A DNA stretch of 64,000 bases from Sinanodonta woodiana (taxonomy: Eukaryota): positions 93,638,727 to 93,702,726 of the forward strand of contig CM100994.1 in the NCBI GenBank assembly GCA_046254885.1, given 5' to 3'. Position numbers and translations under genes: made by a program. Positions 32,346 to 60,424 of this stretch are shown piece by piece (position 1 is the first letter of the stretch; the number at the start of each line of letters is the position of its first letter). The notes beneath the pieces were generated by a model. The model worked only from the letters and a program-made list of their open reading frames with translations. It did not search any database and was not told the origin of the DNA.

Positions 32346-32461
32346 TATTGTTCCGAGAGGGATTTTAACGTCAACGAGTACTCGTTGATGGTATCGTATC
32401 TGTAACGTGATGATGATTCCATTATTGTAAAATGTTTACATGATAATAAATATTAACTCTA

Positions 32462-33430: not shown

Positions 33431-33438
33431 TATCAGCA

Positions 33439-34230: not shown

Positions 34231-34331
34231 AGCAGACTTTGATTTTAATTTATTAATTTGACCCGGAGACAACTTAACACTGACATACGTATATGGCATT
34301 TTATATTCTAAACATGATCCATCTAATTGTG

Positions 34332-35729: not shown

Positions 35730-35732
35730 GAT

Positions 35733-36099: not shown

Positions 36100-36167
36100 A
36101 CTGCGATGTACATCATGTTATAAAAAACTAATGCTTTCAATATGACGCCGGTGATAAATCACAGTGA

Positions 36168-36590
36168 TCAATCACTGTAGTAATCATCGATGAGTTCATT
36201 AAGAAAACTACGATACATTCCAATATCCATGGCGTGTCCACGAAATAATCGCTGGCAGATTTCAGTAGCCTCGTTGATCAACTCCGGAGAATGATTTCCA
36301 GCACGTTTTTCCCCAATGAGAACTTTCAATCGTGATATATCGTCGATGATACTCCGTGAGAAAGGGATATTACCACCGTGATAAACCTTACCGGATTTTG
36401 TAGGTAACGGTGTAGATAAATCTGCCTCGGCGACGACTTTTCCTTCTTCTGGAACAGCTTCCTCATATGATGGAAGACCTTGTAATATATCTCTTATTTT
36501 ATTTTCATGCCTGGAAAATCGGCCACCCCTCTCTCTACCAGGTACAGATACATCATATTTCCAGCTATACATTTTTATACCACTGATCAA
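36168..36590 (-). CDS. protein B
   Basis: 140-aa ORF ending GGNIPFSRSIIDDISRLKVLIGEKRAGNHSPELINEATEICQRLFRGHAMDIGMYRSFLNELIDDYYSD. Confidence 0.45.
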   Translation of the reverse strand: MISGIKMYSWKYDVSVPGRERGGRFSRHENKIRDILQGLPSYEEAVPEEGKVVAEADLSTPLPTKSGKVYHGGNIPFSRSIIDDISRLKVLIGEKRAGNHSPELINEATEICQRLFRGHAMDIGMYRSFLNELIDDYYSD

Positions 36591-36698
36591 AATCTATACT
36601 TTTTTATAACTAGTATATTTTATGATCTTTCATGTTTTTATATGTATCAATTGCATACTTAGCTAACTCATTAATGTTATCTTTAGATCTAATTTCTT

Positions 36699-37145
36699 CT
36701 AACGTATTTTGAATACATATATACTTCGGCGAAATAACCCTCCATGCTCTTCTTGTTCTACCGGTATAGGTTGTGTAACCACATCTCCGACATCTATCTC
36801 ACCAAATTGTTTCAAAGCTTCCTCCTGTTGTTGTTGTTGACGTTGAGCGGTTACGATACGACCAGGAATAGTTTGTAAAGTTTCCTCCGTTTGCTTAGTT
36901 TGTTCTACTATTTTAGTAGTATCCGCAGCAACCTTAGCAACCTCGGTACCAACATGTGCAGTTACTTCACTGATCGGTTTAAATAATTCTGAGTTAGAAA
37001 TCAAAGATTCAGTACGTGCTTGTTGTTGTCGTTGTGAATTATCTCGAAACGCATCCTGGAGAAGAAGAAATTTTTTGATAGCAGCTAATCTTTCTCTATT
37101 TAATCTAGCTATTTGAGCTTCTCCGACTGGCATTATATAATACAA
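36699..37145 (-). CDS. protein A
   Basis: MPVGEAQIARLNRERLAAIKKF...; single VGTEVAK unit. Confidence 0.45.
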   Translation of the reverse strand: MYYIMPVGEAQIARLNRERLAAIKKFLLLQDAFRDNSQRQQQARTESLISNSELFKPISEVTAHVGTEVAKVAADTTKIVEQTKQTEETLQTIPGRIVTAQRQQQQQEEALKQFGEIDVGDVVTQPIPVEQEEHGGLFRRSIYVFKIR

Positions 37146-37149
37146 TAAT

Positions 37150-37359
37150 CTTCATTGAAATCTTCGGCTGAAAGATCACGTACGCACACAAGCATGTTTA
37201 TGTTGCTAACGCAACAACTATGACGAATTACCCGGTTACATTTTCTTGCTATGTTCGACGATATTATTTTGGCATTATGAGGCGTTATCATGTATTTTGC
37301 TTATCGGTATATAACAATGATGAGAAGAAAAAAAGTTCTGGGTTTACCCCCGTTGCTGC
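37150..37359. repeat. terminal inverted repeat (right) of I-A
   Basis: Inverse complement of 5748-5957; terminus ...ccccgttgctgct followed by the TSD gttca. Confidence 0.7.
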
Positions 37360-38487: not shown

Positions 38488-38653
38488 ATATAAAGCCTGA
38501 TTTTAAGATGTCAATTTGTCAATCCAGAGTGGTCAAATCCTACAAAGCTTTTCCAGGCATCGAATCGTTAATTTAAGCCTTCCTCCAAATAGCAAAAAAA
38601 TAAAATGATGCCCCTGCGTCCGAGATAGGCTGCTCAGGGTAATCCTATGGATT
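38488..38653. repeat. left TIR of II-a (outer ~70 bp missing)
   Basis: ataaagcctgattttaagatgtcaatttgtcaatccagag...ccgagataggctgctcagggtaatcctatgg is mirrored at 53930-54130. Confidence 0.6.
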
Positions 38654-39313
38654 TTAAGTGGATATTTGATCAAGTCTGATACGATATCGTGTCCTAGGGT
38701 CATACAAATTAATTGTAACAAATCCGTGTGCGGTCGACTGAGCATGACTGAAAAAGTTTTTAAATTTATTGAAGTCCATGTCGGAACACCATGTCTGCCA
38801 AATATTTCGTAGCGTATGTGTATCAACGCCATTGAATACAGCAAGAATATTACAGTTATCCCTGATTACTTTTGGTATTTGAGTGTACCGCTGAGTGACA
38901 TATATCACATCAGTGTTTTTATGCCTGCCTCTGGAAAATATCCTAGCAGGGCTTTTTTGATTGTCTAACATTACATCATCGTATACGACTAAATTATTTA
39001 CGCTTCCATCGAGGTCCTCAACGGATGGCGCATCATTGATATCAGTTATAAACTCAATGACGTTTTCTCCTGCAATCTCTGAAGCGTTTTCGTTAAATTC
39101 TTTTAACACTTCATAGCACCGTTGATCATCTACGGACGGGGCAACTAAATACAACTTGTTCCACCTGATCCATCTCATTTTTAAATTAAGTAGCAATTGC
39201 GTCTTGCCGGATCCAGATGGTCCAATGATAATCATCCGAACAGAGTTTGGTAACGCTGCGACGTGTTTTATTGGTTCTCTTGTTTTAGTCGCTGAAAAAT
39301 CAATTACATTCAC
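38654..39313 (-). CDS. FtsK/HerA-type packaging ATPase (intact, 219 aa)
   Basis: IIGPSGSGKTQLLL, LVVYDDVMLD, RGRHKNTDVIYVTQRYTQIPKVIRDNCNIL. Confidence 0.75.
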   Translation of the reverse strand: MNVIDFSATKTREPIKHVAALPNSVRMIIIGPSGSGKTQLLLNLKMRWIRWNKLYLVAPSVDDQRCYEVLKEFNENASEIAGENVIEFITDINDAPSVEDLDGSVNNLVVYDDVMLDNQKSPARIFSRGRHKNTDVIYVTQRYTQIPKVIRDNCNILAVFNGVDTHTLRNIWQTWCSDMDFNKFKNFFSHAQSTAHGFVTINLYDPRTRYRIRLDQIST

Positions 39314-39330
39314 AACGCTATATATAAATT

Positions 39331-39859
39331 ATGGATTTATATTGTGTGAAGTGTAAAACGCGTACTAGCAGAAATGATGTGACGACAATTACAACTAAAA
39401 ATAATCGAACAGCACTTAATGGTAAGTGTGCGACATGTGGTATAAAAAAATTAGATTTGTTTCCTCTGACAGCATCAAGGGTGTTTAAAAAAAACAACTC
39501 GGAGTTGATATTGCAGCCAAATTAGCAAAACTCACAGGAACCCCATGGGAAAAGTATCCCGGAGAAAAGCACCTTCCAGGATATAGCTACTGTGGCCCGG
39601 GAACACGATTAGATATCAGACTAGATGAACAAAATCAACCCCGACCTGGCGAGAATCCGATAAATGCTATTGATAATACGTGTCATGCTCATGATGTTGC
39701 TTATAAAAGTAGCAATTTGCAGCAAAGGCATATCGCTGATGTAAAATTAATTCATGCGCTAAATGCTATTCCTGATAAATCCTTCAAAGAAAAATTGGCT
39801 TCATGGTTGGTAAAAACAGCTATGAAAGGTAAGTTGGTGATGGGCGCTAATTATAAATA
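39331..39859 (+). CDS. C4 zinc-finger / PLA2 protein; +1 frame break in A8 at 39487-39494
   Basis: MDLYCVKCKTRT...GKCATCG, then in the next frame YSYCGPGTRLD (YxGxG) and CHAHDVAY (HDxxY). Contiguous if the A-run is read one base longer, the same site and direction as in the I-A copy. Confidence 0.65.
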
Positions 39860-39861
39860 AT

Positions 39862-40796
39862 ATGGAATATATTTATTATTCTCCGAGAGGATACTGGAGG
39901 GGTAAAGCTGCAATTAGTAAACTCGCAAGTGCCGCAAGGGTAAAAAAGACAACTGCGGATAATTGGTTATCCAAACAAGCTATTTGGCAAATTTTTCTAC
40001 CACGCCCTAAACAAATCAACTTTTCGCATTTTGATGTTACTGTACCTAATGAAGTTCATCAAGCTGATTTATTATTTTTGCCACATGATAACGGTTACAA
40101 ATACGCGCTAACAGTAGTTGATGTAGCGAGTCGATACAAACAGACAGAGCCATTGAAAACAAAGTCGGCATCTGAAGATGCTTCTGCATTTGAAAGGATT
40201 TATCGTAGAGGTCCTCTGCGCTGGCCAAATCTACTACAGGTTGATCCTGGTAAGGAATTTCAAGGTGTTGTTGCATCTTCAATGAAACATCATAATGCCG
40301 CCATCAGACGAGGACATACTGCACTACATCGTGATCAGGCAATTATTGAACGATTCAATCGGACTCTTGCTGAGCGGTTATTTGGATATCAATACGCAAA
40401 AGAATTCATTCAGGATAAAAGATCTCGTGAATGGGTTAAAAGGTTACCAGGAGTAGTTGCAGCTCTAAATAATGAGATTACCAGAACAATCAATATGAAA
40501 CCCAGCGACGCAATAAAAAAAGTATATACCCGGACAACCACGAGATGGTTATTCCCAGCCAATTCTTGGTAATGTCACTGTGAGATATTTATACGAGCCA
40601 GGAGAGCTTGAAGGTGGTACAGCGAGGGCTACTGATCCTATTTGGAGTGTTACATAGGATATCTACTATAACACGATCAACTGGTACACCTCCAATCTAT
40701 AAGTTGGATTCAACTGCACCTCAGCGGGGTTTTACACGAGAACAACTACAAGTGATTCCTGACGATACTCAATTGTCTCCATGCGGCCTTAACTAG
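39862..40796 (+). CDS. rve integrase (DD35E; 236-aa ORF intact through the core; C-terminal SH3-like region frameshifted)
   Basis: LTVVDVASRY..VDPGKEF..35 aa..ERFNRTL. C-terminal VRYLYEPGELEGG and YKLDSTAPQRGFTREQLQVIPDDTQL are in other frames. Confidence 0.8.
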
Positions 40797-41193
40797 CGCC
40801 TTTTCGTCTATTACACTCAAGATATGTCAACATCACATTATCGCGTATATGCCCGAGATTGTTATTTTTTCTGTCTACGGTAAATTGACGAGGGTCTTTA
40901 TCCGAATACTGCCAGCGCATTATACAATTGCAACTCGCACAGTGATTATTATGTTGCTGTTTCAAAACAATTATAAATTCAGCATCAATATCAAATTCCC
41001 GTTTATTTTTTTATCCTGTTGTTTGTATCCAGAGAGTTTTTTATTCATAATTTTAATATCGAAAATGCTGGTATTTTTAATATCACTGATTGTGGTTTCT
41101 GCGTCATCATCGAAAACAATTCTTCGAAGTTAATTTAATCGCCGCACTCTGGATACTGCAAGATATACTAAATTCGACCACTCAATGCGATTA

Positions 41194-44100
41194 TCAACTA
41201 TCCAAACAATTGTATCCGTGATGATTAATCCCTGCGAAGAGTATTGTTGCTGCGTAACCTAGCGTCCATGGTGATTTATCAGCACGCAACGCATCTTCGA
41301 CAGCACTAATATCAACCAGTACAATATCATTTAATACTAAAATCTGTTTTTCTGTCAACCGGCCTGGAACTTCAACTTCAATATTTTGTCGCCGTGTGTC
41401 CGAAGGCCTGTAACACAACGGTACTGGCACCGTTGGAAATTTTTCTTTATGCAACTCGAATAACTTTCTCTGAAGTGTATCTCTGACTATTTTTCTACTT
41501 GCGATTATCAAATCATTTGGTCTCCACGTTTCCCAAAAGTCATTCATGGTAGTTTCTGGAATTATTTCACGCGCTACTTCACATTGAATTCTATCGGGTT
41601 GTAATCTGATTAGTTTCTTGAATTCTCGTAATGGTTCATCAAGTGCTCTATGGTCAGTATCGATTTCTTCATAATAGTCAACAAACCCTTTCAGGTAATC
41701 ATGTGGACTCTTGCCAACAAATGGTGGTGGTTGACCATGATCGCCACACATTATCACTTTTGTATTCGAACGCAACAACCAATCAATAAACATTTGTAGC
41801 ACATCTAGCGAAACAGTGCATATTACATCCCATATAATGATTTCAGGAATAAATTTCTCGCCCATTCTTTCAGGGGTCCACTCATCACCTTTATATCTAA
41901 AAAAGCTGTGATAAGTACATGCATCTACGTTTCGTTGTTTTCTCTCTCTCGCTAGTCTGTGAGTCGGTGTAAGCACAATCATATTTGCACGATCTCGATA
42001 TAATTCTATCGCACGTGTTGTTTTCCCTGACCCGCCACATCCGTTTAAATAAACTGTTTTATACCTACAAATCGGGTCAGATACCACTGGTGCATTAGAC
42101 CACTTTGATAAATTATCACCGCGTAAGTAATTATCGGCCATCGGGACATCTGCTGATTTGAAATAATCACGTCGTATTTCATTTTTAATTCTCCATGTGC
42201 CCCAACTCTCATTTGGATTAGTAAATTCAGCCACTTCGTTTATGTAATTGCGGTCAATATACATTGAATCAATTGCAACTCTAACCGCAGTATTAGGAAA
42301 TCTATTTATCATTGAAAATAAATTGATAGAAGCATAACCCAGCATAGATGCCCTCAAATGTGCATACGGAGAACTTTCACCGTCGTTGTAAGTAACAATT
42401 GTACCTAACTTTACCCCATTGGACAAGAAAGCTGTTTTACAATTCGCATATCTATTTTTTGCTACTGCATCTTTGATTACAAAATCGTATTCGGCGTCAT
42501 CTATAATCAGCCGTGAAGAATATCTTTTATAATCGTAGTTTTCCCCCCTTGAGTAAATTTGCCAATTATTCTCCTGCCGAGATCTTTTGCTTCGATGTTT
42601 CGTTGGTTGAATATCTTTTTGGATCACTCAATGATATATTCTTCGTTGCAATCTCGAAGATGTTTTCTTGATTCGTCAATTATACTATCAAGACGCTCTG
42701 GTTATGGCAGCCAGACATCAGTCTGCGCTCGATATGATATAATTGCCTCGCTGACAATCAACGAAATTTGCATTTTACAATCAATCATATATCGCAATAA
42801 CACTATTGGCAGTCATATTTTTTCAGACATATGTCTACCAATCCAAACATAACAACACGGATGCAGTCCAGTTGCGAATTCAAATGATACTACTTTAGCA
42901 AATCCGGTTAAATCAAAATCAGGTAATGGTCCATTAATAGCAACACGAGTCATTTCATGTACTGGGTGACCAAATCGTTTGTAATACTCAGCACACTCCC
43001 CATACCCGAGGAAACTCCCTGGATAACAAGCAACCATATCAACGGAAATCATACTATCTCGGTCGTATTTATTATTCCATAAACCACCGTGATTAAGTTT
43101 CAAAAAGCTTGATTGTACATCTGGTAAAAAATCTCTGCGTGTTGGTTTTCACGCATTTTTCTTTCTTGCAGCATGGGCTGCAATCGATGGAATTGTAAAA
43201 CAATTTGTCAGTAATTGTTCGTCTGATTTTCCATCATTGAATTCCATGGCGAGTTTTTTCATCCGTGTATGGAGATCTTCAGTGCGGTATAATTCACCGT
43301 TAGGTCTTACAAATTGATTGAATCCACACTCTTCATCTTCAGCACTGCGAAGTAACCACACTGACACAGGGTCATTTTTACACGCACACGCAATAGCATC
43401 GAATAGTCTTTCTTCCGTGAGAAGTCCATCCCTGGTGAATTCTTTAGGGATAGACTTCAATGTTCTATCCCGTGGGAATATTGTAATCGTGGGTGTCCAA
43501 GCGTGTTTGTTATGATCAATAATTTTGATTGGAGCTCCGTTTTTATTGTATTTCAATTCGTATAACACCTCAGCGGTAATCGTTATAACGGTTATTGGAA
43601 ATCTTAGCAGTGTTTCTAATTTAGATATATCAGTAATAGTTACTACATTCTCTTTCACAGTTAAATCCCATTCATTAATTTTCTTACGCCGCAGCTCAGT
43701 CAATTTATTTCCACAGAGTGCATTTGTAAAATATTCCATTACTCGTGCTGCTACACAATTCAATGAAGCCCCTGACGAGAGTTTCATTTGTGCTAGTTTT
43801 CCAATATCAGGCTTCTTACTCAACGGGTATATCCCATAAACAACTGCTGTTTCAGGATAAGCTCGTTCATAGCATGGTCTGTCAATTCCAGTTTACAAAC
43901 CCGGATTGGAATCACGGCTAACAGTTAATGTTTTCTTGTCGCTAAGAATTGGAACTAATTTGTCTCTTATAATCCAATCACCTCATTCCAATTCCGCATG
44001 GATAATAAATTTCACTCTAAAAAATACTTTTTACTGTCAAGTTGTGATTACATCGCAGCAGCAGTTTCATCATTCATGGTGGCATCAACAACGCCATCAA

Positions 44101-44284
44101 ATTTAAATCTCGACCAGCTATGAGATGCACCGTCGTGCTTTAATTCCTCTGCACAGTCACAAATTTTATTTATTAAACTTCTATCCGTTATTGCCTTTTT
44201 GAGGGTATTTTTGAGGGGTCTATCGAGATTAAATTTAATATTTTTCGAAGGCTTAATCGCCGATAATCTCTCGAACTCCTTCAT
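41194..44284 (-). CDS. replicase, ~1,030 aa: N-terminal unknown domains plus intact 477-aa SF1 helicase (upstream part in 4 frame-shifted pieces)
   Basis: 41194..42627: VYLNGCGGSGKTTRAIELY, LTPTHRLA, IMCGDHGQPPPF, motif-VI region degraded (TILFAGINHHG). Upstream pieces 42813..43103 (MISVDMVACYPGSFLGYGEC), 43149..43823 (IKIIDHNKHAW) and 44048..44284. Confidence 0.7.
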
Positions 44285-44329
44285 GTTATAATTAAAACAA
44301 GTATTTAAATAAAAAAAATTATTATATGA

Positions 44330-44663
44330 TGAATAATTGCAAATGGCTTATGATAGGTTCGACAACTCCATGTAACAAGTCTTGTAGAAATGAATACTGT
44401 GGATATCATTTACAGAGTGTTCGAAAGGGTCGAAAGGTCCCTTAAAATGCCTTGCTTGCGGAATTGGCGTGAGAGGATATTCACAACTTTGCGTGGTGTG
44501 TGGAGGCAAGCGGTATAGAGAATTAAAACGTTACTATGACAAGCGAATAGAAAATGCAGTGATTGACCCTACCCTTGACTCTGTCAAAGACAAAATCATC
44601 AAAACCCCACATGACTACATTAATAGATTTATAATTAAGACAAATAATAAATTAGACAAATAG
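44330..44663 (+). pseudogene. small Cys-rich zinc-ribbon protein (frameshift)
   Basis: STTPCNKSCRNEYCGYHLQS then LKCLACGIGVRGYSQLCVVCGGKRYRELKRYY. Confidence 0.45.
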
Positions 44664-44689
44664 TATTTTTTTTACAAATGAGCTAAGAA

Positions 44690-45237
44690 TTCAAACCTCA
44701 TCCAGTGCTAAGTAATTCTGAAGCATCTCGTGATGGCATTGTTAGAAATCGTATTCTAAAGAATACATTAAAGAAGATGTATAATACCACGGGGTATTTG
44801 ATGTTCATTGCTGGTTGAAAAGTATTACATTCACAGAACCATCTATGAAGCATTTAACGGATTAATCGAGGACGGATTTGTGATTGATCATAAAAATGGC
44901 GTAAAAACTGATGACTCTCTTCAGAATCTCCAAGTTGTTACTCAAAGTTAGAATACAAAATTCGGTGGAACTGGCAAATATGGAAAACAAAAAAAAAAGG
45001 GTTGTGAAATCATTTGACACAGCAACTAACAAAAAAGAAATATTTCAGTCAATAAATGCTGCTGGAAAATGTTTCGATATTTGTCCACTCTCAGTACAAA
45101 AAGTAGCAGAAGGAATATATCGGACACCGACTTCCAGGCGAAATAAACTCAAAATTCGATTTGAATACATTACACCAAGTGGAGATTATTCCTGCGTGGA
45201 TATTCCAGAGTGTAGAGTTATGCCGCTTTATCCATGA
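44690..45237 (+). pseudogene. HNH endonuclease remnant (heavily degraded)
   Basis: GFVIDHKNGVKTDDSLQNLQVVTQS then a stop. The C-terminal AGKCFDICPLSVQKV matches the SAGKYYDICQQSLKRV tail of the other copies. Confidence 0.45.
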
Positions 45238-46984
45238 TTACAACGTCAATGGGTTTAGTCACTTTGCCTTACATGTGTATTGATGACGTATTCTTTTGTT
45301 GTTATTTATACTTCCTGATATAAATACAATGAAAGAATTAGTTCGTATATTTTACAAAAATAACCTGCATATGTGTGATTTAAACTAAATTGTAAATCAC
45401 TTATTGTTAGATGGGGGTTGGGAAAATTCACAGTCAAAACAGCTATAATGTACTAGATCTGTATCAAAGGTTTTTTTGCTTGTTCACCGTGTGAAAAGAT
45501 TTTATCTGACGCGCGGGTCGGCTATTGTTATTAATTTCGAAAGAATTTTCTCCAAGTGTTTTACTGATTTTTTTACCACACATACCTTGCAGACGACTAT
45601 ACTAGTATATACATCTCTGTGAATTTGGTCCTGTTACATCAGTATCAAATCAATTGAACAATTAAAATGTCAATTGTCATTTCCTTACCGAAACAGTCTT
45701 TAATATAAACTATGAAGGAATTGTTGATGATAATGATATCATTTTTTACCCTGTAATACAGCGGTTTTCGGATTAAAGGTAAACAGACGATTATAATACG
45801 TAGTGGTCACGTGATCGGTAACTGTCTTCTCTTGTACAACATACATAGATTAAAAACTCTCTTATTGCTAAGTGTGACCCGTGGTCTAGTGCAAACGTGT
45901 TGGCTTGTGGAACTCTACCAAGCTGACTGCTGCGGGTTCACGCCCCATTGCAGGCGAATGCCCGGTGGTAGCGACGTATGCTTTTTTCTTTATAATTGAG
46001 AAGGAGAGGCGACCTCCTTGTCGAAATTCAAAATGAAACCAAAAGATGCAATCCATGGCTATCTATTCACGGTAGCTTTGGGATTGAAGATTTTACTTCA
46101 ACCATGCAATCAATGAATTTGATTTTCATTGATTGCATTTTTGGTTCTATTTTGAATTTCGACCATTATGACTCAATCATTTCATTATATCATCATTTAT
46201 CCATTCATTGTATATATGCTCTTTGTATGTCTCCTCCCCTTTGGGCTTACTTGGATGTGAAGGCGCAACCAAGGAGTTCCAAAGATGTATTGTATATATG
46301 TCAGCTACAGTCTGCCAAAACACTCGATATTGGAGATTAATGGCTTTCGTAAATGTCCTTAATTAAGTTAATTAAGTTAGTTAAGTTATCATTGTATATA
46401 AATCATAAATCATAAATCATTGTATATAATCATATGATAAAAACGGAGGTCTCAAAGAGACCTCCCGATATTTTTTCATTAAAAATTACTTTGCAATTTT
46501 CATAATTAAATAAATATATTTTAATATATTATGGATAATCAGGATTTACATCTTATAATTTCTGAAATTTCAAATTTGAAAAATCGTAGAATAAAATCAG
46601 AAGTTCTCAACACAGATTTCATTACTTCTGAATTTAGTCGAATAGACGGTAAGTTAAAACACGGTTACTATGTTTTACCTAAAATGTATTCATTAATATA
46701 AAAAAATACAGACATCAATAAATTCATCTCTGTTTGGAATGACATAGACGAATTGATACAGTTATTTAGCATTGTTGAATCCGTCAGACAAAAACTATGA
46801 TGTGAATATAATCGAAGGGCAGAAATAGCTTTAAAACTTAAAAATATTAAACAAATTATTAATGAAGACTCTAGAAATTGCAAAGCTGAAAATCCTACGG
46901 ATTTTTCAGTAGAATTATCTCATGAGGTACCTCACACGCATTAAATTTTCACAATTACATTCCTGACTAATCAAGGGAAAACCC

Positions 46985-47225
46985 TATGGTAAAAATACTT
47001 CCTAGATTATGACTTGTAAGAGTTCTTTTTTTCAGGGTAAAATTCAACTTGCGTTAACAAAGCGCTATTCACTTCCTTGATTATGACTTGTATTGTAAGA
47101 GTTCTTTTTCAAGGTAATATTCAACTTTGAAAATGCTTTGCATTTTTACGATACATAAATAACAAAGCGTGATTCACTTCTTGATTGTAATGATAAAAAT
47201 CAACGCGCGCGCTTAAACTCTAACA
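46985..47225. promoter_or_regulatory. direct-repeat array upstream of the II-a structural module (candidate late promoter/enhancer)
   Basis: cttcctagattatgacttgtaagagttctttttttcagggtaaaattcaact occurs twice, and aacaaagcg[c/t][t/g]attcacttc[c]ttgatt occurs twice, within 240 bp before gene A (47270). Confidence 0.35.
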
Positions 47226-47269
47226 CGGAATCTATTCACAATTGAAAACATTAATGGGAAATTAGAATA

Positions 47270-47734
47270 ATGATCGCAGAAGCGATGACTTCGAGAATAA
47301 ATAAGGAACGACTCGTGGCCCTTAAAAGGTTCATACTGATTAGGGACCGTCTAAGGGACAAATTACAACAGCAAGCTCAAACGGACTTTTCTATTGAGCC
47401 TGAAGACCTTTTTGCCCCTGTAACGAGTGCAACAAGAGAGGTTAAAACCGCAGCAGAGCGTGTCATATACGGTGATATACCCAAAGAAGGAAAGCGACAT
47501 GAGATGCCTGTCCTTGGTGTACTTGAAAAGATAGCAGCTGAAACTGAAAAGACACAGCAAGGGATAAAGAAATTATCCAGTGATATAAAAACCCAACGAG
47601 AGTTTGAGCGATTAGCTGATATTGATGATGAAAATATACCAGCGCCTGAACCAGCAAAAGAAAAATCTCAACGAGGTGTTCCTTTTATAAATAAATTTGA
47701 TGAGGATGCTATAAAAAGAATAAGAGAGGGTTGA
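47270..47734 (+). CDS. protein A
   Basis: 154-aa ORF; N-terminal RINKERLVALKRFILIRD aligns with the I-B copy. Confidence 0.45.
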   Translation: MIAEAMTSRINKERLVALKRFILIRDRLRDKLQQQAQTDFSIEPEDLFAPVTSATREVKTAAERVIYGDIPKEGKRHEMPVLGVLEKIAAETEKTQQGIKKLSSDIKTQREFERLADIDDENIPAPEPAKEKSQRGVPFINKFDEDAIKRIREG

Positions 47735-47735
47735 A

Positions 47736-48376
47736 TTGAATAAACTAGAGGATTATACAACCTTTGGTGATTTTGCTATCAAAAATTATTATCAAAGGGA
47801 ACAATTTTTAAACGACCAGTATAAAAATAGTGAAATAAGCAAAAACGACTGGGTTGATTGGTTATATAAAATAAATAAGGGAATTACTGGCAATTTAAAA
47901 AGGGATACACTAGAGTACAGAGCTTTTAGATTAGGGGCTGATAGTTATGGTATACAGCGACAACAACTACGAGTGCAAGAACTACAATGACGACGAGAAG
48001 AACGAGGACGGGGTCGAGGACGGGGTCAAGGGAGGGGTCAAGGCGGGGTCGAGGTCGAGGTCAACAAGCGCAATCACCTGATGATAGTCAAGGAGCAACT
48101 GGTACAACTAAGGAGGTGATTGCTAGTGGGTATTCAAGTGGTGGCAACATTGGAAATTCAGCTGTGACATGTCCTGGCAATATTCTCAGTGATATACCAC
48201 GGCTAGAAGTTCTAATTGGTGCAAAACGATCTGGAAATAATTCTACGGAAATAATTTATGATTCAGCTGATATTTATCGAAGACTATTTCAAGGTGGTGT
48301 CATGGACATTAATTTATATCGTGAGCTTATTGAAGAGTTAGTGGAAGGTCACCGAGATGGTTATTACAGCGACTGA
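47736..48376 (+). CDS. protein B (two ORFs joined by a frameshift; RG-rich linker)
   Basis: 47736..47990 plus 47987..48376. A GA-rich repeat encodes RTRTGSRTGSREGSRRGRGRGQ. C-terminal GGNIGNSAVTCPGNILSDIPRLEVLIG...GYYSD. Confidence 0.45.
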
Positions 48377-48479
48377 ATTTTCACAATTGGAAAACCAGTA
48401 CTTAGAAACTGTTAGCAATTGAAAACACTAGTATTTTTATAATAAGATGATCAAACACTATAATCATGATAAACCAACT

Positions 48480-48927
48480 AGCGTCTACGTGGCAAACTCA
48501 CGACTGCCTGTGTATAGCGCATGCTACGGTGACGGTCTTGGCAATAATATTGTAGGTTTATTTACAAAAAATGGCCCCAAAAGTGTCACCGCTAGCTAAA
48601 CAATTAGGGATGAAAGCTATTGATGTTATTCGTGATAGGGGAATTAGCGCTGTTGGAGATCTTGCTGAAAATGCATTTTTTGGAGCAAAGGATAAAATAG
48701 TATCACTGGTAAAATCCAGAAGAAAAATGCCAATAGTGCTACCATCTACAACAGTGATGCCTGCAAGTGTTAGTAAAGTAATAAATAGCGCAGCGGAGCA
48801 AAAACTAGCATCATTAGTAACTTCACCAGTGCCATCAATGACTTCGTCGGATACAACAAATAACGCTATCATGAGTGCGATATCGGGGAGTGGATTAAAG
48901 CCACGAAGAAGAAAAAAAAACAATTAA
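48480..48927 (+). pseudogene. protein C (N-terminal frameshift)
   Basis: ANSRLPVYSACYGDGLGNNIVGLFTKNGPK is in a different frame from ORF 48571..48927. Confidence 0.4.
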
Positions 48928-49018
48928 AAATTCATTGAATTTGAAAATCCTCTGGATTTTTATACTAATGCTGGCATTAGTATTTAGAAATTTTTATAGC
49001 AATTGAAAATACTAGTAT

Positions 49019-50449
49019 TTGAATATAATGTTTAAACGAACAGTCGACACTGCGTTTGACATAGACGCACCAGTACGTAAATATGATTCAGTTCGTGATT
49101 ATCAGTGTTATTCCTATCATGCTATGCAACCTAACTTACGATCACGAATTGAACTTCAAGTCCAGGATACCAGTAAATACTTTTTGCCATGTGAAGTATT
49201 TATTGAAGTCGAAGGAGAACTAGTAACAAATGTTGCAGCCGATACACCATATGATAATAACCAAAATATCCGAGTTGGATTTGTCAACAATGGTATCATG
49301 GCGCTATTTGAAAGTGCAAGATATCTCATTGATGGAAAAGACATTGAATCAATCGACCGTGAGGTTGATATTGCAACAACAATAATCGGACTAGCAAGAT
49401 ATTCTGATGATTATACAAGGTCAGTTGGTCCGTCTATGATGTTTGCCAAGGATACTTCTGATCAACCTGACCACCTTCAGTACATCAGTTAACTCCATAA
49501 GACACTTCAGTTGCTAATCAACAAGAAGCAGCTAATCCAGAATGCCGAGCTAGACCAGGTGCGGATTTCGACATTATAAAAGGTGTTAACGAAAATTACA
49601 ATCTAGGATTTGCAACACGAAAGGCAACATTACATGGACAACGCAGACAGTTTTCATGTGCGATTCCGCTTCATCATATATTTGGATTCTGCAGAAATGT
49701 CAGAAAAGTCATTTATGGAGCAAAGCATACAATCGCGCTAGTACGAAAAGGTGATGACAATGATGCAATCTGGCGTGCTGCTGGTGTTGCTGCTGGTAAA
49801 GTTGTTTTAAGAAAATTAGCGCTGTGGATGCCAGTAATGACCCCGTCAATTACCGAAGAACAACGGTTACTTTCATTTATGGACACAGGAGGTAAATCAT
49901 TGCTAAGTTGGCTAACAACAACGACTGATACCAAGGATGATGATGCTGCAGGGACTTTTACATGGCACTTAGCAGCAAAACAAGGTGTTTCAGCTCCACG
50001 TCATATAGTTATTGCGCTACAAGATCGTGCACGATTAAATTCCCAAGAACACAGTCATATGATATTTAATCCACTCGGTGTTAGTGAGGTTTCGCTGAGA
50101 ATAAATGGCCAGCAGGAACCAACCGAGGATATACAACTCGATTATGGTCAAAACCAGGTTGCACGTGTGTATCATCGGATGCTGTCATTTATGGGTCGTG
50201 ATCAAAATGTCGATACTGGTTAACAAATATCGCAACTTGATTTTAAAAGCCTATATCCGATATATACTTTTCACTGGAACATCTTGATTTAATAAGACAA
50301 TCTGTCGTTGACATACACTTTAGAGCTCGTATTGCCCCTGCTGGTGTTAATAATAGAGCGGTTGCTGTCATTCTCAGTGATAAATCAATGCTGTTGGAAG
50401 GGGTTGGTGGACGAATGAGACTTATTGATGCACCAGTGGAAAATATGTA
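49019..50449 (+). pseudogene. candidate major capsid protein (3-4 ORF pieces)
   Basis: 49019..49492, ~49560-49830, 49828..50223 and 50240..50449 are collinear with the II-b copy 62606-64000. Confidence 0.4.
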
Positions 50450-50518
50450 GTTGAAATGGAAAATATTTCAGATTTTTACAATTAGATCAATTGAAAGCAT
50501 AAATGATTTTACAATAAA

Positions 50519-51425
50519 ATGCCATATAATGTTGTTAGTGTCTCACTGACCGATGGCCAGGTCAAGAAATTGCGATCAAAGTCAGCTAAAGAATGTGGAA
50601 CCACAATAACGCTAAAGCCGTCACAAATGACTGGTGGTACACATATAATCTCATTAACGGATCGTCAAATCAAACATTTCAATGATGCAATGAAGAATAA
50701 AAAAGGTGTTCAGGTAGATTTTTCAAAGGCTGCAATCGATAATATGATAAAATCCGGTGGTATATTTCCGTTGTTAGCTGCTATGCCAGCGCTAATTGCA
50801 GCGGCTTCCCCAGCGGTGGCGAAAGCAGAGGCGCTAGGAGCTGTTGGTACTGCTGCAGGGATGGCACTAAAAAAGGCAACCGGTCAAGGATATAAAAAAA
50901 GTGAAAGGGTTTAAGACTACCAGGAACTCCGCATACATGGTGCAAGGGAAGCGGATTAAGAATACCAGGAATGGTTTATTAGCAAAATCCTACGGATTTG
51001 GGCCTATTGTTCCCATGTCTAATTTTGATTTAATTGATGCCGCTAGATCATTATCGCTGAAAAATTTCAGAGGAGTATTTATGAGAGATCAATTACCGAA
51101 AATTCCTAATGACGTTGAAACCGGCATAATCAATCTTGATAATTCCACAATGGGAACTCATTGGGTTGCATACGCGATTGATCCGCGTGGGATTGTCTAT
51201 TTTGATTAATATGGGTTAGCACCGCCGAAAGAATTTATGCGGTATATAACAAAACTAAAAAAAAATCCTGTTTTCTATTCCACGCTGCCAACACAACAAT
51301 TAAACGACCCGCCGATATGTGGCCGTGAAGTGTTAAATGTACTCGCGGAGATATCATTGAAATCCTCAAAACCACCTCATGTGGTTGTAAATGAATATAC
51401 CAATGGGAAGTTTTTAGAGAAATAA
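50519..51425 (+). pseudogene. adenain-like protease (frameshift in A7 at 50894-50900; in-frame TAA at 51207-51209)
   Basis: GTHWVAYAIDPRGIVYFD then a stop, then YGLAPPKEF...TQQLNDPPICGREVLNVL. The paralog has TCA (Ser) at the stop position. Confidence 0.65.
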
Positions 51426-51439
51426 AACATATCTTAATA

Positions 51440-51680
51440 ATCATGATTGATATTTGGGGACGACCTCTTTCAACAGCAGAAAAACCCAGCACGGAAACAC
51501 GAGCGCTTGATTCCATCAAGGATGTAAAAAAAAATAATAATCGAAGACGAAATCGCTGAGACGTTGAACTTAGCAAGTGTTGACCCGGGAGAAATAGTTA
51601 TATTTCAGGATCGCCAGGGTAAATTTAAATCCAGTAATGTGTCCCTGGATGTTCTTTTAACAAAAAAAACCACCATTCAG
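51440..51680 (+). pseudogene. protein D remnant (internal deletion)
   Basis: MIDIWGRPLSTAEKPSTE... and NLASVDPGEIVIFQDRQGKFKSSNVSLD match the N-terminus of 60811-61626. The rest is missing. Confidence 0.4.
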
Positions 51681-51687
51681 CAATATT

Positions 51688-51960
51688 GTGTACACGCTTG
51701 AATCCGGATCATTTGTTTGGGCTGTTACAAGTAATATACTACCTTACACTGCAGCCGTCAAGGGTATTTATCGATTAACACTAGTGTCGCCAACTCGGTG
51801 TAATATATCATCGCCGAGTTCATATGGAGACAATAACGTGATATCAACAATCATTGACAAAGATGCAACTGAACGGTTTACAATAACAAGCACAGACGCT
51901 CATTTAGCCAGGGCATCAGTGACATGGTATATAGAATCTGTAGCAGATCTAAGCAAATGA
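51688..51960 (+). CDS. protein E (90 aa)
   Basis: Nearly identical to 60425-60751. Confidence 0.45.
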   Translation: MYTLESGSFVWAVTSNILPYTAAVKGIYRLTLVSPTRCNISSPSSYGDNNVISTIIDKDATERFTITSTDAHLARASVTWYIESVADLSK

Positions 51961-52065
51961 AAAATCTTTTAAGAGTTTCGAAATCGAAAACACTATCATA
52001 TAAAATATAAAATGACTTCATCGTCACCATCATAATATCGCTATGATACCATCACGAAATTTTCA

Positions 52066-52542
52066 ATGGAACTCAAAGCACTAGCTGAAGAGTACGCAAT
52101 AAAAATTAAAAAATACAGCAGGAGAATTACCGTCATTGACGTTACAGTGTACTCAGTAAGCGGTGTAATGGCAGGAACTGGTATTATACTATCTTCAGTG
52201 ACAATGATAGCTCCGATTGCAGTTCCAACCGCTATCTCTGCGGTGACAACAATTGCCGGGGTTGCAAATGCAATCACGAAGAAATTATCATCATGTGCTC
52301 AGGAAAAACTTAACGAGTATACAGTAAAACATCAAATTGCATCAAACGGCTACACTCAATTATCCTCGCTGATATCATCGATTGATGACTCATTAATTAC
52401 CGACGATGAATTTTCCGCGATGGTTCGTATTTATGATTCCGCTATATCGAAATTAGAAACTATAAACAATAATAATAATGTCATCAGTAGAAATACTTCA
52501 ACGAATAGCAACAAATACAACTCCGGTACAAACAAAGCATGA
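52066..52542 (+). CDS. membrane protein F (intact, 158 aa)
   Basis: MELKALAEEYAIKIKKYSRRITVIDVTVYSVSGVMAGTGIILSSVTMIAPIAVPTAISAVTTIAGVANAI; one predicted TM helix. Confidence 0.5.
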   Translation: MELKALAEEYAIKIKKYSRRITVIDVTVYSVSGVMAGTGIILSSVTMIAPIAVPTAISAVTTIAGVANAITKKLSSCAQEKLNEYTVKHQIASNGYTQLSSLISSIDDSLITDDEFSAMVRIYDSAISKLETINNNNNVISRNTSTNSNKYNSGTNKA

Positions 52543-53478
52543 TATCAATAACATCAACAAACCCGGAATTTAGCGTGAACTTCCCCTCGCCGGTTTCAGT
52601 GAGCGAGATCGCGCTGGCAAAATTACGAGTATATCATAGTTGGCCTAATATTAGATCAGTAGCATTCGGCGGTCAACAACCCAACAATTCACTGGTGTTT
52701 GCACACAAGAATAAATCCGATGGGACACCAGACTGGCAGATTATTTCATTACCAACGGGGTCATACCAAATTGAACAAATCGATAAAGAATTTCAGCGTA
52801 GGATAAAATCAATTACTGGAAAAGAATCAAAAATTTCTATTAGCGTCCATGAACTGACGCTGTCATCTACAACTGAGATATCCACGGAGGGATACGTCGT
52901 AGACATTTATCGAAGCTCAATAAGAACCGTATTAGGTTGGCCTGAAAGACCACCTCAAAAAGAAACCGTTGATATACCCGAACCTGAAAAATTTAATTAT
53001 ATCACTAATAAAATAGCACCTGATAATCCAATAAAAAGTCATCACGATTATGAATTCAACAGATTCATGGTCGCGGTAAAAACATCCAACCTCCCGCCCA
53101 TAGATTATTATCGGATTAACTCAGTCGAGATTAATGAAAATTGTGTAGCTATGACTAATGATCTTGCATTGTTGTTGGTGTCATTGAGATCTGGTGAACT
53201 TTCCAGAGATGAATTTATCAACATCATAGAAACATGTAATAAAATCTTAGACGATGCAAAAATATTTCATGATAAGGTGATTTCTGATATTTATAATAGA
53301 CTTAATACTTCTAGTGCTAGTGACCTTTCTACCAGAACAAAATAATTTTTTGCCACACAATTTAATATCCGCGTAGAGGATATACCTAATTTTAAGTTGC
53401 CGGACTATCCGGTTCCCTCGATGAAACAATCTCTCAACGATGCCGTCTGGGAAGGTTTAAAAAAAACAACACGATAAT
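52539..53478 (+). CDS. candidate minor capsid protein G (C-terminal frameshift near 53340)
   Basis: STNPEFSVNFPSPV...LRVYHSWPNIRS. The C-terminal FATQFNIRVEDIPNFKLPDYP is in the next frame. Confidence 0.4.
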
Positions 53479-53511
53479 TGGTTAAAACGTCAGCAACCAC
53501 AAACAAATATC

Positions 53512-53859
53512 TTGACACACAATAATGCTCTAGATGGCACCGGTAGACATATTGCGCCAGGAAATGCGAATATTTCATCAGTGATTGCACTTAATTTAGT
53601 ATGTGATGTCATCAAAGGAAGCTATCACATTAATCTAGAACAATCAAATCAGGCCCAGCAAGGATATATTTTATACTCATTTGCACCAACAGCGCCACCT
53701 GGATTCTTAATTGTTGAGGACCCGGTTAATCCTGTATATATGCGATGTCATAATAAATCATTAACGAGAATCAATTTCCGGGTTACTGACCAGGCAAATA
53801 ATTTGATTGATCTACGCGGCGAAGTGTTAGCGATTAGTCTATTTGTGAATCGTAAATGA
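53512..53859 (+). CDS. protein H (115 aa)
   Basis: QGYILYSFAPTAPPGFLIVEDPVNPVYMRCHNKSLTRINFRVTDQANNLIDLRGE. Confidence 0.45.
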   Translation: MTHNNALDGTGRHIAPGNANISSVIALNLVCDVIKGSYHINLEQSNQAQQGYILYSFAPTAPPGFLIVEDPVNPVYMRCHNKSLTRINFRVTDQANNLIDLRGEVLAISLFVNRK

Positions 53860-53861
53860 AA

Positions 53862-54203
53862 AATCCATAGGATTTTCAGCTTTGCAATTTCAAAGGACTT
53901 TCAGTAAAATCATAAAAAATATTCACTTAAAAATCCTATGGTGAAAATCGAAGATTTTCCATTTCCAATCAAAGATTACCCTGAGCAGCCTATCTCGGGC
54001 GCAGGGGCGCAGGGCATCATTTTTTTTTGGTTGTTGCTATTTGGAGGAAAGCTTAGATTAACGATTCGATGACTGGATAAACTTTGTAGGATTTGACTGC
54101 TCTGGATTGACAAATAGACATCTTAAAATCAGGCTTTATAGGAAGCGTTAGATTAACGATTCGATGCCTGGAAAGCTTTGTAGGATTCGCCCTCTCTGCT
54201 GCT
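53862..54203. repeat. right TIR of II-a (with internal tandem duplication)
   Basis: Inverse complement of 38488-38653. The gcttagattaacgattcgatg[a/c]ctgga[t]aa[a/g]ctttgtaggatt unit is present twice. Terminus ctctctgctgct. Confidence 0.6.
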
Positions 54204-60346: not shown

Positions 60347-60424
60347 CATTTTATATTTTATATAATAGTGTTTTCAATGGGAAAATCTTTGATTTTCATC
60401 GGAGAATTTTCACTAAAAGATTTT

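What the first reader, a model, noticed from the sequence alone, without database searches (positions are those of the whole stretch)
38488..54203. Structural gene block (A-H) is inverted relative to the replication/integration block between subfamily I and subfamily II
In I-B the order is TIR, A to H (+), X, I (+), then J, HNH and Zn (-), replicase (+), integrase and PLA2 (-), ATPase (+), TIR. In II-a the genes A to H lie on the same strand as Zn and HNH, and opposite to the replicase, with H rather than A next to the terminus. II-b confirms that H is adjacent to the terminus. So an approximately 6.6-kb module inversion distinguishes the two lineages. The degraded 2-kb stretch 45240-47270 lies at the inversion boundary, where the I and J genes are lost.
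Basis: seen in the sequence. Interest (0 to 1): 0.6.

Follow-up and report, generated by a model that had tools for sequence, protein, structure and literature searches.

The report
Flipped capsid-gene block in mussel endogenous virus
Two old lineages of a virus-like mobile element packed into this (probably freshwater-mussel) DNA carry their 6.6-kb capsid/assembly gene block in opposite orientations; the rearrangement is real and inherited, but it is an ordinary kind of difference for this class of elements.

Summary
The window holds four copies of a 16-17 kb element with terminal inverted repeats (TIRs). It encodes a double-jelly-roll capsid protein, an A32-type packaging ATPase, a Ulp1-like protease, an rve integrase, PLA2, HNH, and a large replicase ending in a Pif1-like SF1 helicase. 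That is a Tlr1-type Polinton-like virus, endogenised in a mollusc genome.

Copies I-A and I-B have the order TIR, A..H(+), HNH/Zn(-), replicase(+), integrase/PLA2(-), ATPase(+), TIR. In II-a (38489-54203) everything from the ATPase to HNH is inverted relative to I-B, while A..H (47270-53859) is co-oriented, so H abuts the terminus. II-b (57991 onward) also has H next to the terminus. Contigs from other samples carry traces of the same H-next-to-terminus layout. It is therefore not a one-off or an assembly error.

New findings:
- A 44-51-bp inverted repeat brackets the flipped block in II-a.
- The H-side terminal repeats contain 3' pieces of the ATPase gene, so that end was rebuilt from the other end.

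I favour a flip of the terminal block together with its TIR, followed by TIR repair. This mechanism is inferred, not shown.

Lineages I and II are deeply diverged (capsid about 55% amino-acid identity), and relatives show still other gene orders. Loss of genes I and J is unsupported. Interest is low to moderate.

The parts
38489..54203 (.). Copy II-a, the whole element. The left TIR lacks the outermost ~63 bp. The right end is complete and finishes in CTCTGCTGCT.
   Evidence: TIR pairs 38489-38605/54024-54140 and 38610-38644/53974-54008; terminus motif at 54194; end alignment.
38654..39313 (-). Packaging ATPase (Pox_A32), transcribed towards the left terminus.
   Evidence: Pfam PF04665, E=3.5e-12; 67-73% amino-acid identity to the subfamily I ATPase.
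39331..40796 (+). DUF5679 zinc ribbon / PLA2 region and rve integrase. Reading frames are partly broken.
   Evidence: PF18930 and PF00665. PLA2 (PF08398) is confirmed in the I-A orthologue 6753-7160 and in L007/L008.
41194..43823 (-). Replicase: an unassigned N-terminal region plus a C-terminal Pif1/RecD-like SF1 helicase, split into 3 ORFs.
   Evidence: AAA_19/AAA_30; profile hits to PIF1 helicases in the PDB; homologues in molluscs and Glomeromycota.
44469..45237 (+). Zn-ribbon gene and HNH endonuclease gene, on the same strand as A-H in II-a.
   Evidence: tBLASTN map; HNH_3 in the I-B orthologue.
45240..47269 (.). Spacer at the inner boundary of the flipped block. It has no long ORF and no detectable homology to X/I/J, to subfamily I or to L001-L007.
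46859..46908 (+). Inner arm of the inverted repeat that brackets the A-H block. It is a subterminal-type sequence containing the hairpin motif AAATCCTACGGATTT and points towards gene A.
   Evidence: BLASTN 51 nt, 86%, E=5e-9. The 22-mer GAAATTGCAAAGCTGAAAATCC occurs exactly twice in the window against 0 expected. It is the second-best inverted repeat of the element. It resembles the I-B ATPase-side subterminal region 26359-26392.
47270..53859 (+). Structural / morphogenesis block A-H: A, B, C, DJR major capsid protein, Ulp1-like protease, F, F2, G, G2, H. It is co-oriented with I-B 9883-17583, whereas the rest of II-a is inverted.
   Evidence: DJR-like_dom PF21738 E=6e-15 and a weak Peptidase_C48 match in the I-B orthologues.
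53857..53907 (-). Outer arm of the bracketing inverted repeat, immediately after the H stop codon.
53917..53941 (-). Copy of the ATPase stop-codon region (compare 38644-38667), lying inside the H-side terminal region.
   Evidence: Read from the sequence and the end alignments. A 15-nt exact match between the II-a ATPase end and H end was reported.
53974..54203 (.). Right TIR of II-a, carrying a tandem duplication of a ~64-bp unit.
57991..64000 (.). Copy II-b, which runs off the window. Order: terminus, ~480-bp TIR, then H, G2, G, F2, F, protease and capsid protein, all on the minus strand.
   Evidence: Terminus motif at 57991; about 80% DNA identity to II-a 49061-53856, inverted; gene map.
58473..58506 (+). 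34-nt fragment of the 3' coding end of the ATPase gene, lying between the TIR and the H stop codon of II-b.
   Evidence: 94% match to I-A 5965-5998; 18/18 nt match to the L001 ATPase end.
9618..26589 (+). Copy I-B, the reference arrangement, with exact ends and a 5-bp target duplication GCCTT at 9613-9617 and 26590-26594.
5931..37198 (-). Copy I-A (5931-9617 plus 26590-37198). It is interrupted by I-B, has the same gene order as I-B, and lacks gene X.

Best explanation
What it is (shown). The window is a pile-up of four endogenous copies of a Tlr1-type Polinton-like virus or transposon in a mollusc genome, most similar to the unionid mussel Sinanodonta. The copies belong to two deep lineages.

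The difference between lineages (shown). The lineages differ by a true inversion of the 6.6-kb morphogenesis block (A-H, including the capsid protein and protease) relative to the replication/integration/ATPase part. In lineage I, gene A and the ATPase gene are the terminal genes. In lineage II, gene H and the ATPase gene are the terminal genes, and both are transcribed outwards. The lineage II order was inherited: it predates the roughly 20% DNA divergence between II-a and II-b.

How it most likely arose (inferred). The terminal structural block was flipped together with its terminal repeat. This could happen by breakage at the block boundary and rejoining through the natural genome end. Equivalently, it could happen through a head-to-head dimer or a nested opposite-orientation pair of copies, followed by deletion. 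Either route puts the old subterminal sequence inside the element, upstream of A, and leaves H at a bare end. That end was then given a new terminal repeat by copying from the ATPase end.

What this accounts for:
- The relic upstream of A and the rebuilt H-side copy now form the 44-51-bp inverted repeat that brackets the block in II-a.
- The copying carried bits of the ATPase 3' end to the H side.
- In other lineage II relatives, later copying in the reverse direction carried the H 3' end to the ATPase side.
For: Gene content.

Host affinity: the G2 protein is 94% identical to a Sinanodonta woodiana protein. Helicase relatives occur in Sinanodonta, Elysia and contaminant contigs of lucinid clams.

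Inversion.

Lineage-level status:
- II-b has the terminus motif at 57991 and H ending at 58520.
- L007, from a JGI metagenome, has ATPase, then a 22-nt stretch 95% identical to the H 3' end, then a TIR, terminus and flank.
- L001 has a 29-nt, 97% identical copy of its own H 3' end next to its ATPase.

Inverted repeat bracket. Its sequence is of the subterminal type found beside the ATPase in I-B. The inner arm points towards A, as expected for a former A-side end.

End rebuilding from the ATPase side: a 34-nt ATPase coding fragment lies between the TIR and H in II-b, and an ATPase stop-region copy sits at 53917-53941 in II-a.

Opportunity for recombination between opposite-orientation copies: I-B sits inside I-A in the opposite orientation.

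Precedent: recombination between Polinton copies or their TIRs has been proposed as the cause of inversions at the C. elegans eri-6/7 locus (PMC11414722).
Against: - Only 44-51 bp of terminal-type sequence is recognisable upstream of A. The rest of the 2-kb spacer has no similarity to any TIR, so a full internalised TIR is not demonstrated.
- The H-side arm of the repeat lies inside (on the gene side of) the ATPase-derived fragment. It was therefore not part of the most recent end copy, and layered events must be assumed.
- The repeat contains a hairpin motif that recurs at intergenic sites (8 copies). It could be a regulatory cassette rather than a relic.
- II-b and L001 lack the 44-bp motif next to H.
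- Polarity (I to II, or II to I) is unresolved.
- Only two copies per lineage are in the window, and the external contigs are short or mosaic.
Confidence: 0.5

Rival explanations
1. In-place homologous inversion. An ancestor already had short inverted copies of the subterminal or hairpin sequence on both sides of A-H. Recombination between them inverted the block, leaving hybrid repeats at both boundaries and the original TIR untouched.
For: The A-H block of II-a is bracketed by a 44-51-bp inverted repeat with a 22-nt exact core. After the TIRs, this is the strongest inverted repeat in the element. Recombination between Polinton copies or their TIRs has been proposed to cause inversions elsewhere (PMC11414722).
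Against: No inverted repeats bracket A-H in I-A or I-B. II-b and L001 lack the motif at the H end. This model does not explain why the H-side terminal repeats contain 3' fragments of the ATPase gene. Repeats of 44 bp at 89% identity are short substrates for homologous recombination.
Confidence: 0.2
2. Module reassortment rather than inversion. Lineages I and II were assembled independently by recombination between different viruses, joining a morphogenesis module to a replication/integration module in either orientation.
For: Relatives L003-L006 have a replicase and integrase 51-63% identical to II-a, about as close as lineage I is. Their ATPase is only 24-26% identical, and their structural genes are undetectable by tBLASTN. 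So modules are exchanged in this wider family. Other junction variants exist (L001/L012 with HNH next to the ATPase, L008 with ATPase then Zn).
Against: Between I and II both modules are diverged to a similar degree: ATPase 67-73%, integrase 64%, capsid 51-58%, helicase 49-54%. All A-H genes are shared in the same internal order. This fits co-divergence after a rearrangement better than the import of a foreign module.
Confidence: 0.15
3. Flip-flop isomerisation. The block is an invertible segment that switches orientation frequently during replication, as herpesvirus segments flanked by inverted repeats do. On this view the endogenous copies simply sample both isomers.
For: An inverted repeat brackets a terminal segment in II-a. 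L001 has an inverted 50-nt duplication of the ATPase/DUF5679 promoter region flanking its replication block. This shows that blocks flanked by inverted repeats recur in the family.
Against: Orientation follows lineage in all four window copies: two I copies and two II copies, about 65-70% DNA identity between lineages and 76-80% within them. The terminal genes have had time to leave lineage-specific footprints in the TIRs. The lineage I copies have no bracket.
Confidence: 0.05
4. Artefact or private event. The II-a order is an assembly mis-join, or a chromosomal rearrangement after integration that affects this one copy.
For: II-a is degraded: it has broken ORFs, a truncated left TIR and an unexplained 2-kb spacer.
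Against: II-b independently has H next to the terminus. H-derived sequence sits at ATPase ends in contigs from other samples. II-a retains TIRs at both ends, enclosing the rearranged order.
Confidence: 0.03

Closest known systems
Tlr1-type Polinton-like viruses (Tlr1 of Tetrahymena and PLVs with a 'Tlr1-like helicase'; Yutin 2015 PMC4642659, Krupovic 2016 PMC5499653)
   Same: DJR capsid protein, A32-type packaging ATPase and rve integrase, with no detectable protein-primed PolB gene. The replicase is large (about 1,200 aa in relative L004) with a Pif1-like SF1 helicase at the C-terminal end. There is an associated HNH endonuclease, and some relatives have it fused to the helicase C-terminus (consensus). 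The element is linear with TIRs.
   Different: The host is an animal (mollusc) and the copies are endogenous and multi-copy. The element also carries a parvovirus-type PLA2 domain fused or adjacent to a DUF5679 zinc ribbon, and a Ulp1-like protease. The inactivated PolB domain that defines Tlr1-like helicases was not detectable here by Pfam or PDB sequence searches.
Polintons / Mavericks (Orthopolintovirales)
   Same: Size class of about 15-20 kb, TIRs, a short target-site duplication (5 bp here), rve integrase, Ulp1/adenain-like protease, DJR capsid protein and A32 ATPase. Integration is into animal genomes, with nested insertions.
   Different: No protein-primed family B polymerase was found. 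Replication relies on an SF1-helicase protein instead.
Mass endogenisation of Polinton/PLV elements in unionid mussels (bioRxiv 10.1101/2025.04.19.649669)
   Same: [quoted passage not shown] This fits a window in which about 46 of 64 kb is made of such copies, whose closest protein matches are from Sinanodonta.
   Different: In the passages I read, that survey counts and classifies regions. Those passages do not mention gene-order variants, nested insertions or terminal-repeat footprints.
Polinton-associated inversions at the C. elegans eri-6/7 locus (PMC11414722)
   Same: Several Polinton copies or TIRs in inverted orientation at one locus, with inversion of the DNA between them attributed to ectopic recombination.
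   Different: There host genes are inverted by recombination after integration. Here a module of the element itself is inverted, and the new order has become the inherited layout of a lineage.
Terminal-repeat repair and expansion in linear dsDNA viruses such as adenoviruses and poxviruses (recalled from general knowledge, not tested here)
   Same: One genome end is used as the template for the other, so the inner TIR boundary moves and can engulf the 3' end of the terminal gene. Reciprocal H and ATPase fragments are seen here.
   Different: Whether these elements replicate as linear episomes, or are only cut and pasted by the integrase, is unknown. They have no terminal-protein or PolB system.

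Membership tests
Polinton-like viruses, Tlr1-type | Double jelly-roll major capsid protein | tested here: met
   I-B 11360-12436 matches PF21738 DJR-like_dom, E=6e-15, 55.7 bits against a cut-off of 27. Orthologues are present in all four copies.
Polinton-like viruses, Tlr1-type | A32/FtsK-type genome-packaging ATPase | tested here: met
   II-a 38654-39313 matches PF04665 Pox_A32, E=3.5e-12, 46.8 bits against a cut-off of 22.8.
Polinton-like viruses, Tlr1-type | Minor (penton) capsid protein | not tested
   Candidates G2 and H have no Pfam match. No structure prediction was run.
Polinton-like viruses, Tlr1-type | Large replication protein (1,000-1,400 aa) with the SF1 helicase domain in its C-terminal part (PMC5499653) | tested here: met
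   AAA_19/AAA_30 in II-a 41194-42627. PIF1 helicases are the best PDB matches to the family profile. In the better-preserved relative L004 the gene is called as two overlapping ORFs of 729 and 493 aa, with the helicase in the second. In the window the reading frame is broken.
Polinton-like viruses, Tlr1-type | Inactivated protein-primed PolB domain upstream of the helicase | tested here: inconclusive
   No Pfam hit for II-a 43149-43823 or for the 729-aa L004 N-terminal protein. No PDB sequence hit. The published detection needed profile-profile searches, which were not available here against PolB.
Polinton / Maverick in the strict sense | [quoted passage not shown] | tested here: not met
   No polymerase domain in any scanned ORF. 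Every stretch of the 16-17 kb copies is accounted for by other genes. Not every small ORF was scanned.
Polinton / Maverick in the strict sense | Retroviral-type (rve) integrase | tested here: met
   II-a 39862-40572 matches PF00665, E=1e-6, 29.3 bits, slightly below the cut-off of 32.6 because the copy is decayed. Unmarked rve hits are on record for the orthologues in L003, L004, L005 and L006.
Polinton / Maverick in the strict sense | TIRs and a short (5-6 bp) target-site duplication | tested here: met
   The I-B TIR is 172 nt at 97%. A 5-bp GCCTT duplication is present, and the interrupted host ORF is precisely restored on removal.
Polinton / Maverick in the strict sense | Ulp1/adenain-like cysteine protease | tested here: inconclusive
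   I-B 13030-13578 matches PF02902, E=0.0024, 18.2 bits, below the cut-off of 20.7. The intact II-b orthologue (290 aa) gave no Pfam hit.
Programmed invertible segment (flip-flop isomers) | Inverted repeats flanking the segment | tested here: inconclusive
   Present in II-a (44-51 bp). Absent around A-H in I-A and I-B. Absent at the H end of II-b and L001.
Programmed invertible segment (flip-flop isomers) | Both orientations among closely related genomes | tested here: not met
   Orientation is the same within each lineage and differs only between lineages about 65-70% identical in DNA. The sample is only four copies.

The most novel reading that the evidence does not exclude
Flipping of a terminal gene block together with its terminal repeat, followed by rebuilding of the lost repeat from the other end, may be a recurrent route by which linear Polinton-like virus genomes reshuffle their modules. 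It might even be promoted by the element's own integrase acting on the inverted copies of the terminal 14-mer that bound the terminal regions. In that case the terminal-repeat relics at module junctions (II-a spacer, L001 junctions) and the reciprocal ATPase and H fragments would be a readable record of successive flips.
Probability: 0.12. Interest if true: 0.55.

Novelty: new member of a known kind. Interest (0 to 1): 0.3.

Why it matters
If the reading is right, these mussel elements give a worked example of how gene order changes in Polinton-like viruses. They offer molecular footprints (internal repeat relics, terminal-gene fragments inside the TIRs) rather than just a comparison of maps.

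The footprints also suggest that the two ends of the element are repaired from each other. That bears on whether such PolB-less elements exist as linear replicating genomes or only as cut-and-paste transposons.

In practical terms, anyone annotating the very large load of such elements in unionid mussel genomes needs to know two things. At least two or three gene orders coexist, and copies are nested within each other. Beyond that, a module inversion between lineages this diverged is expected for this class and does not change current views.

Tried and rejected
1. Circular permutation as an explanation. Rejected: on circular maps the A-H block is still inverted relative to the rest (derived).

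2. Assembly artefact or one-off event. Rejected on the evidence of II-b and the footprints in external contigs.

3. Remnants of X, I or J in the 2-kb spacer. tBLASTX at E<=1 found only the HNH C-terminal part. BLASTN of the spacer against the rest of the window and against L001-L007 found only the 51-nt inverted repeat and one weak 54-nt match.

4. Inverted repeats around A-H in the lineage I copies. None found.

5. More full-length relatives.
- The metagenome scan gave one 5-kb locus.
- IMG/VR scans with the protein and with a family alignment gave nothing.
- Sinanodonta chromosome loci could not be fetched.
- Exact window proteins are not in the protein collection.

6. L001 as a clean lineage II genome. 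Rejected. It is a mosaic or rearranged copy: TIR fragments sit at each module junction, the ATPase is joined to HNH, and both contig ends fall in gene F repeats at 80-82% identity. However, the short-read contig L012 reproduces its HNH-to-ATPase junction, so that junction is real.

7. An early misreading corrected. I first took the 29-nt repeat next to the L001 ATPase for ATPase sequence, and the AGCAGCAGAG beside it for an element terminus. Alignment to L007 showed that the repeat is the H 3' end and that the motif is an inner copy within the ATPase-side terminal region.

8. Identity of the replicase N-terminal region. No Pfam or PDB sequence hit. Structure prediction was not run, because it would not bear on the inversion.

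9. Polarity from relatives L003-L006. Their structural modules are too different to serve as an outgroup.

Full report
**What is in the window**

The DNA is AT-rich (about 36% GC) with microsatellites. Most of it consists of four related copies of one element.

Pfam assigns the following:
- a double-jelly-roll major capsid protein, a Pox_A32 packaging ATPase, an rve integrase, AAA_19/AAA_30 (SF1 helicase), HNH_3 and a DUF5679 zinc ribbon;
- a weak Ulp1-type protease match;
- a parvovirus-type PLA2 domain.

A profile of the replicase family hits PIF1 helicases in the PDB, while the roughly 700 residues upstream of the helicase match nothing. No family B polymerase was found.

This gene set, together with a large protein carrying a C-terminal SF1 helicase, is that of Tlr1-type Polinton-like viruses (PMC4642659, PMC5499653).

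The closest database proteins are from the freshwater mussel Sinanodonta woodiana (94% for protein G2). Others come from Elysia, from clam-derived contaminants of Thiodiazotropha genome bins, and from Glomeromycota. A recent survey reports that such endogenous elements make up as much as 16% of unionid mussel genome assemblies (bioRxiv 10.1101/2025.04.19.649669). The window is therefore a typical piece of such a genome. The exact source remains unknown.

**Copy boundaries**

I-B spans 9618-26589, and its ends are AGCAGCAGAG...CTCTGCTGCT. It lies inside the replicase gene of I-A, in the opposite orientation. Deleting I-B and one copy of the 5-bp duplication GCCTT restores a continuous I-A replicase frame that is collinear with the I-B protein. 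This fixes the termini to the base and shows integrase-type insertion.

I-B in turn carries a 2-kb MULE transposon with a 9-bp duplication in its own replicase gene.

II-a ends at 54203 with the same terminal motif, and its left TIR starts at 38489 and lacks the outer ~63 bp. II-b starts with the motif at 57991 and runs off the window.

**The observation**

A tBLASTN map with reference proteins and tBLASTX give these orders.

- I-B: TIR, A B C MCP PRO F G G2 H (+), X I (+), J HNH Zn (-), replicase (+), integrase PLA2 (-), ATPase (+), TIR.
- I-A: the same order on the other strand, without X.
- II-a: TIR, ATPase (-), PLA2 and integrase (+), replicase (-), Zn HNH (+), a 2-kb spacer, A..H (+), TIR.

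So II-a 38650-45171 is inverted relative to I-B, and II-a 47273-53922 is co-oriented with it. On a circular map the difference remains, so it is a genuine inversion of the 6.59-kb block and not a shifted linearisation point. II-b has TIR, then H(-) ... MCP(-).

**Is it a lineage trait?**

II-a and II-b are about 80% identical in DNA. Lineage I and lineage II copies are about 65-70% identical.

Independent evidence comes from other samples.
- In contig L007, the ATPase stop is followed by 22 nt that are 95% identical to the 3' end of gene H, then about 300 bp of terminal repeat, a terminus and unrelated flank.
- L001 has a 29-nt, 97% copy of its own H 3' end beside its ATPase.
- Conversely, II-b has 34 nt of the ATPase 3' coding sequence between its TIR and the H stop.
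- II-a has a copy of the ATPase stop region at 53917-53941.

These reciprocal fragments are what one expects if H and the ATPase are the two terminal genes and the terminal repeats are repaired from each other, with the inner boundary of the copy slipping into the neighbouring gene. They show that the H-terminal layout is old and widespread in lineage II.

**The boundaries**

The spacer 45240-47269 has no long ORF. It has no trace of X, I or J, and no similarity to lineage I or to the external contigs.

It does contain, at 46859-46908, a sequence that recurs in inverted orientation directly after the H stop (53857-53907). The match is 51 nt at 86%, with a 22-nt exact core found nowhere else in the window. 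After the TIRs, it is the strongest inverted repeat of the element. It brackets the flipped block.

The repeat is of a subterminal type. A related sequence sits between the TIR and the ATPase stop in I-B. It also contains a hairpin motif, AAATCC-TAT-GGATTT, that occurs eight times in the window against 0.45 expected, at TIR inner edges and intergenic sites.

No such bracket exists around A-H in I-A or I-B, and II-b and L001 lack it at the H end.

**Mechanism**

Three facts need explaining together:
1. the block is terminal;
2. a terminal-type sequence now lies internally, upstream of A, and points towards A as a left end would in lineage I;
3. the H-side repeats contain ATPase-derived sequence.

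The simplest account is that the terminal block was turned round together with its repeat. This could happen by a break at the block boundary and rejoining through the natural end. It could equally happen through a head-to-head dimer or nested opposite-orientation copies (as seen for I-B inside I-A) followed by deletion. The bare H end was then given a new repeat copied from the ATPase end.

This is inference. Only 44-51 bp of the presumed relic survives. The direction of change is unknown. The H-side arm lies inside the ATPase-derived fragment, which requires more than one round of end repair.

The main rival is homologous inversion between pre-existing short inverted repeats. It explains the bracket but not the ATPase fragments, and it lacks support in the lineage I copies.

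Reassortment of modules between viruses does occur in the wider family. L003-L006 share the replication module at 51-63% identity, but their ATPase is only 24-26% identical. Between I and II, however, both modules are about equally diverged.

Frequent flip-flop is disfavoured because orientation tracks lineage.

**Further plasticity**

II-like relatives show other layouts.
- L001 and the independent short-read contig L012 (86% identical over 1.4 kb) join HNH directly to the ATPase and terminal repeat. A 50-nt inverted duplication of the ATPase/DUF5679 promoter region lies at the two ends of the replication block.
- L008 has the Zn gene between the ATPase and the TIR.
- In L007, L008 and L012 the terminal region itself is bounded by inverted copies of the terminal 14-mer.

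Gene order in this clade is thus fluid, and junctions tend to involve terminal-repeat or promoter fragments.

**Assessment**

For specialists, a module inversion between lineages with about 55% capsid identity is unsurprising. The added value lies in the bracket repeat, the end-copy footprints and the precisely resolved nested insertions. I rate interest at about 0.3, as a new member of a known kind.

Noticed in passing
window 9613-9617 and 26590-26594; I-A 5931-9617 plus 26590-37198: I-B is nested, in opposite orientation, inside the replicase gene of I-A. It has a 5-bp target duplication GCCTT. Removing it in silico restores the I-A reading frame exactly.
   Followed up: yes
window 20987-22967: A ~2-kb MULE transposon lies inside the replicase gene of I-B. 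It has a PF10551 transposase and 14-bp subterminal tandem repeats (CCGACAAAAGAGCG). It is flanked by a 9-bp duplication AGAGTTGCC, and the empty site is seen in I-A.
   Followed up: yes
window 58473-58506 and 53917-53941; L007 2603-2630; L001 5709-5737: Reciprocal gene fragments lie inside the terminal regions. Pieces of the ATPase 3' end sit beside H in II-b and II-a. Pieces of the H 3' end sit beside the ATPase in L007 and L001. This implies that one end is copied onto the other, with a shifting inner boundary.
   Followed up: partly
window 13240, 26357, 38640, 46890, 48945, 50985, 53861, 62587: The hairpin-forming motif AAATCCTATGGATTT (6-bp arms, 3-nt loop) occurs 8 times against 0.45 expected. 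It lies next to the stop codons of terminal genes and at some intergenic sites, so it may be a terminator or a promoter element.
   Followed up: partly
L001 5563-6907 and 12312-12360; L012 1-1403: A further gene order is found in II-like relatives. HNH is joined directly to the ATPase and terminal repeat, and a ~50-nt inverted duplication of the ATPase/DUF5679 promoter region lies at both ends of the replication block. It is seen in two independent assemblies that are 86% identical.
   Followed up: partly
L003, L004, L005, L006: The replicase and integrase are 51-63% identical to II-a, but the ATPase is only 24-26% identical and the structural genes are not detectable. This points to exchange of whole modules in the wider family.
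   Followed up: partly
L007 ~2650-2920; L008 2398-2547; L012 1156-1403: The terminal regions are themselves bounded by inverted copies of the terminal 14-mer (AGCAGCAGRGGGGG ... CCCYCTCTGCTGCT), like a miniature element. This could allow alternative use of ends by the integrase.
   Followed up: no
L008 2041-2343: In this relative, a Zn-ribbon gene homologous to II-a 44469-44663 sits between the ATPase and the terminal repeat. This is yet another gene order.
   Followed up: no
window 17619-17963: Gene X (114 aa, no Pfam match) is present in I-B but has no counterpart in I-A, where the equivalent gap is about 110 bp. The accessory genes between H and HNH therefore vary even within lineage I.
   Followed up: partly
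window 38489-38644 versus 53974-54203: The right TIR of II-a carries a tandem duplication of a ~64-bp unit, and the left TIR lacks the outermost ~63 bp. The ~480-bp TIR of II-b is largely different in sequence and contains several direct subrepeats of the terminal motif.
   Followed up: partly
window 56011-56253 and 56436-56679; also 1-185, 3300-3581, 4214-4720: The DNA between II-a and II-b holds a 245-bp foldback at 90% identity, possibly a MITE. The left part of the window has a 40-bp tandem repeat and long (ACAT)n and (TTAC)n arrays.
   Followed up: no
window 14015-14335 and 14840-14953; L001 1-820 and 14170-14727: Gene F is repeat-rich and variable in length. I-B has lysine-rich short repeats and an (AT)57 tract, L001 has ~194-bp tandem repeats, and in II-a the gene is largely deleted.
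   Followed up: no
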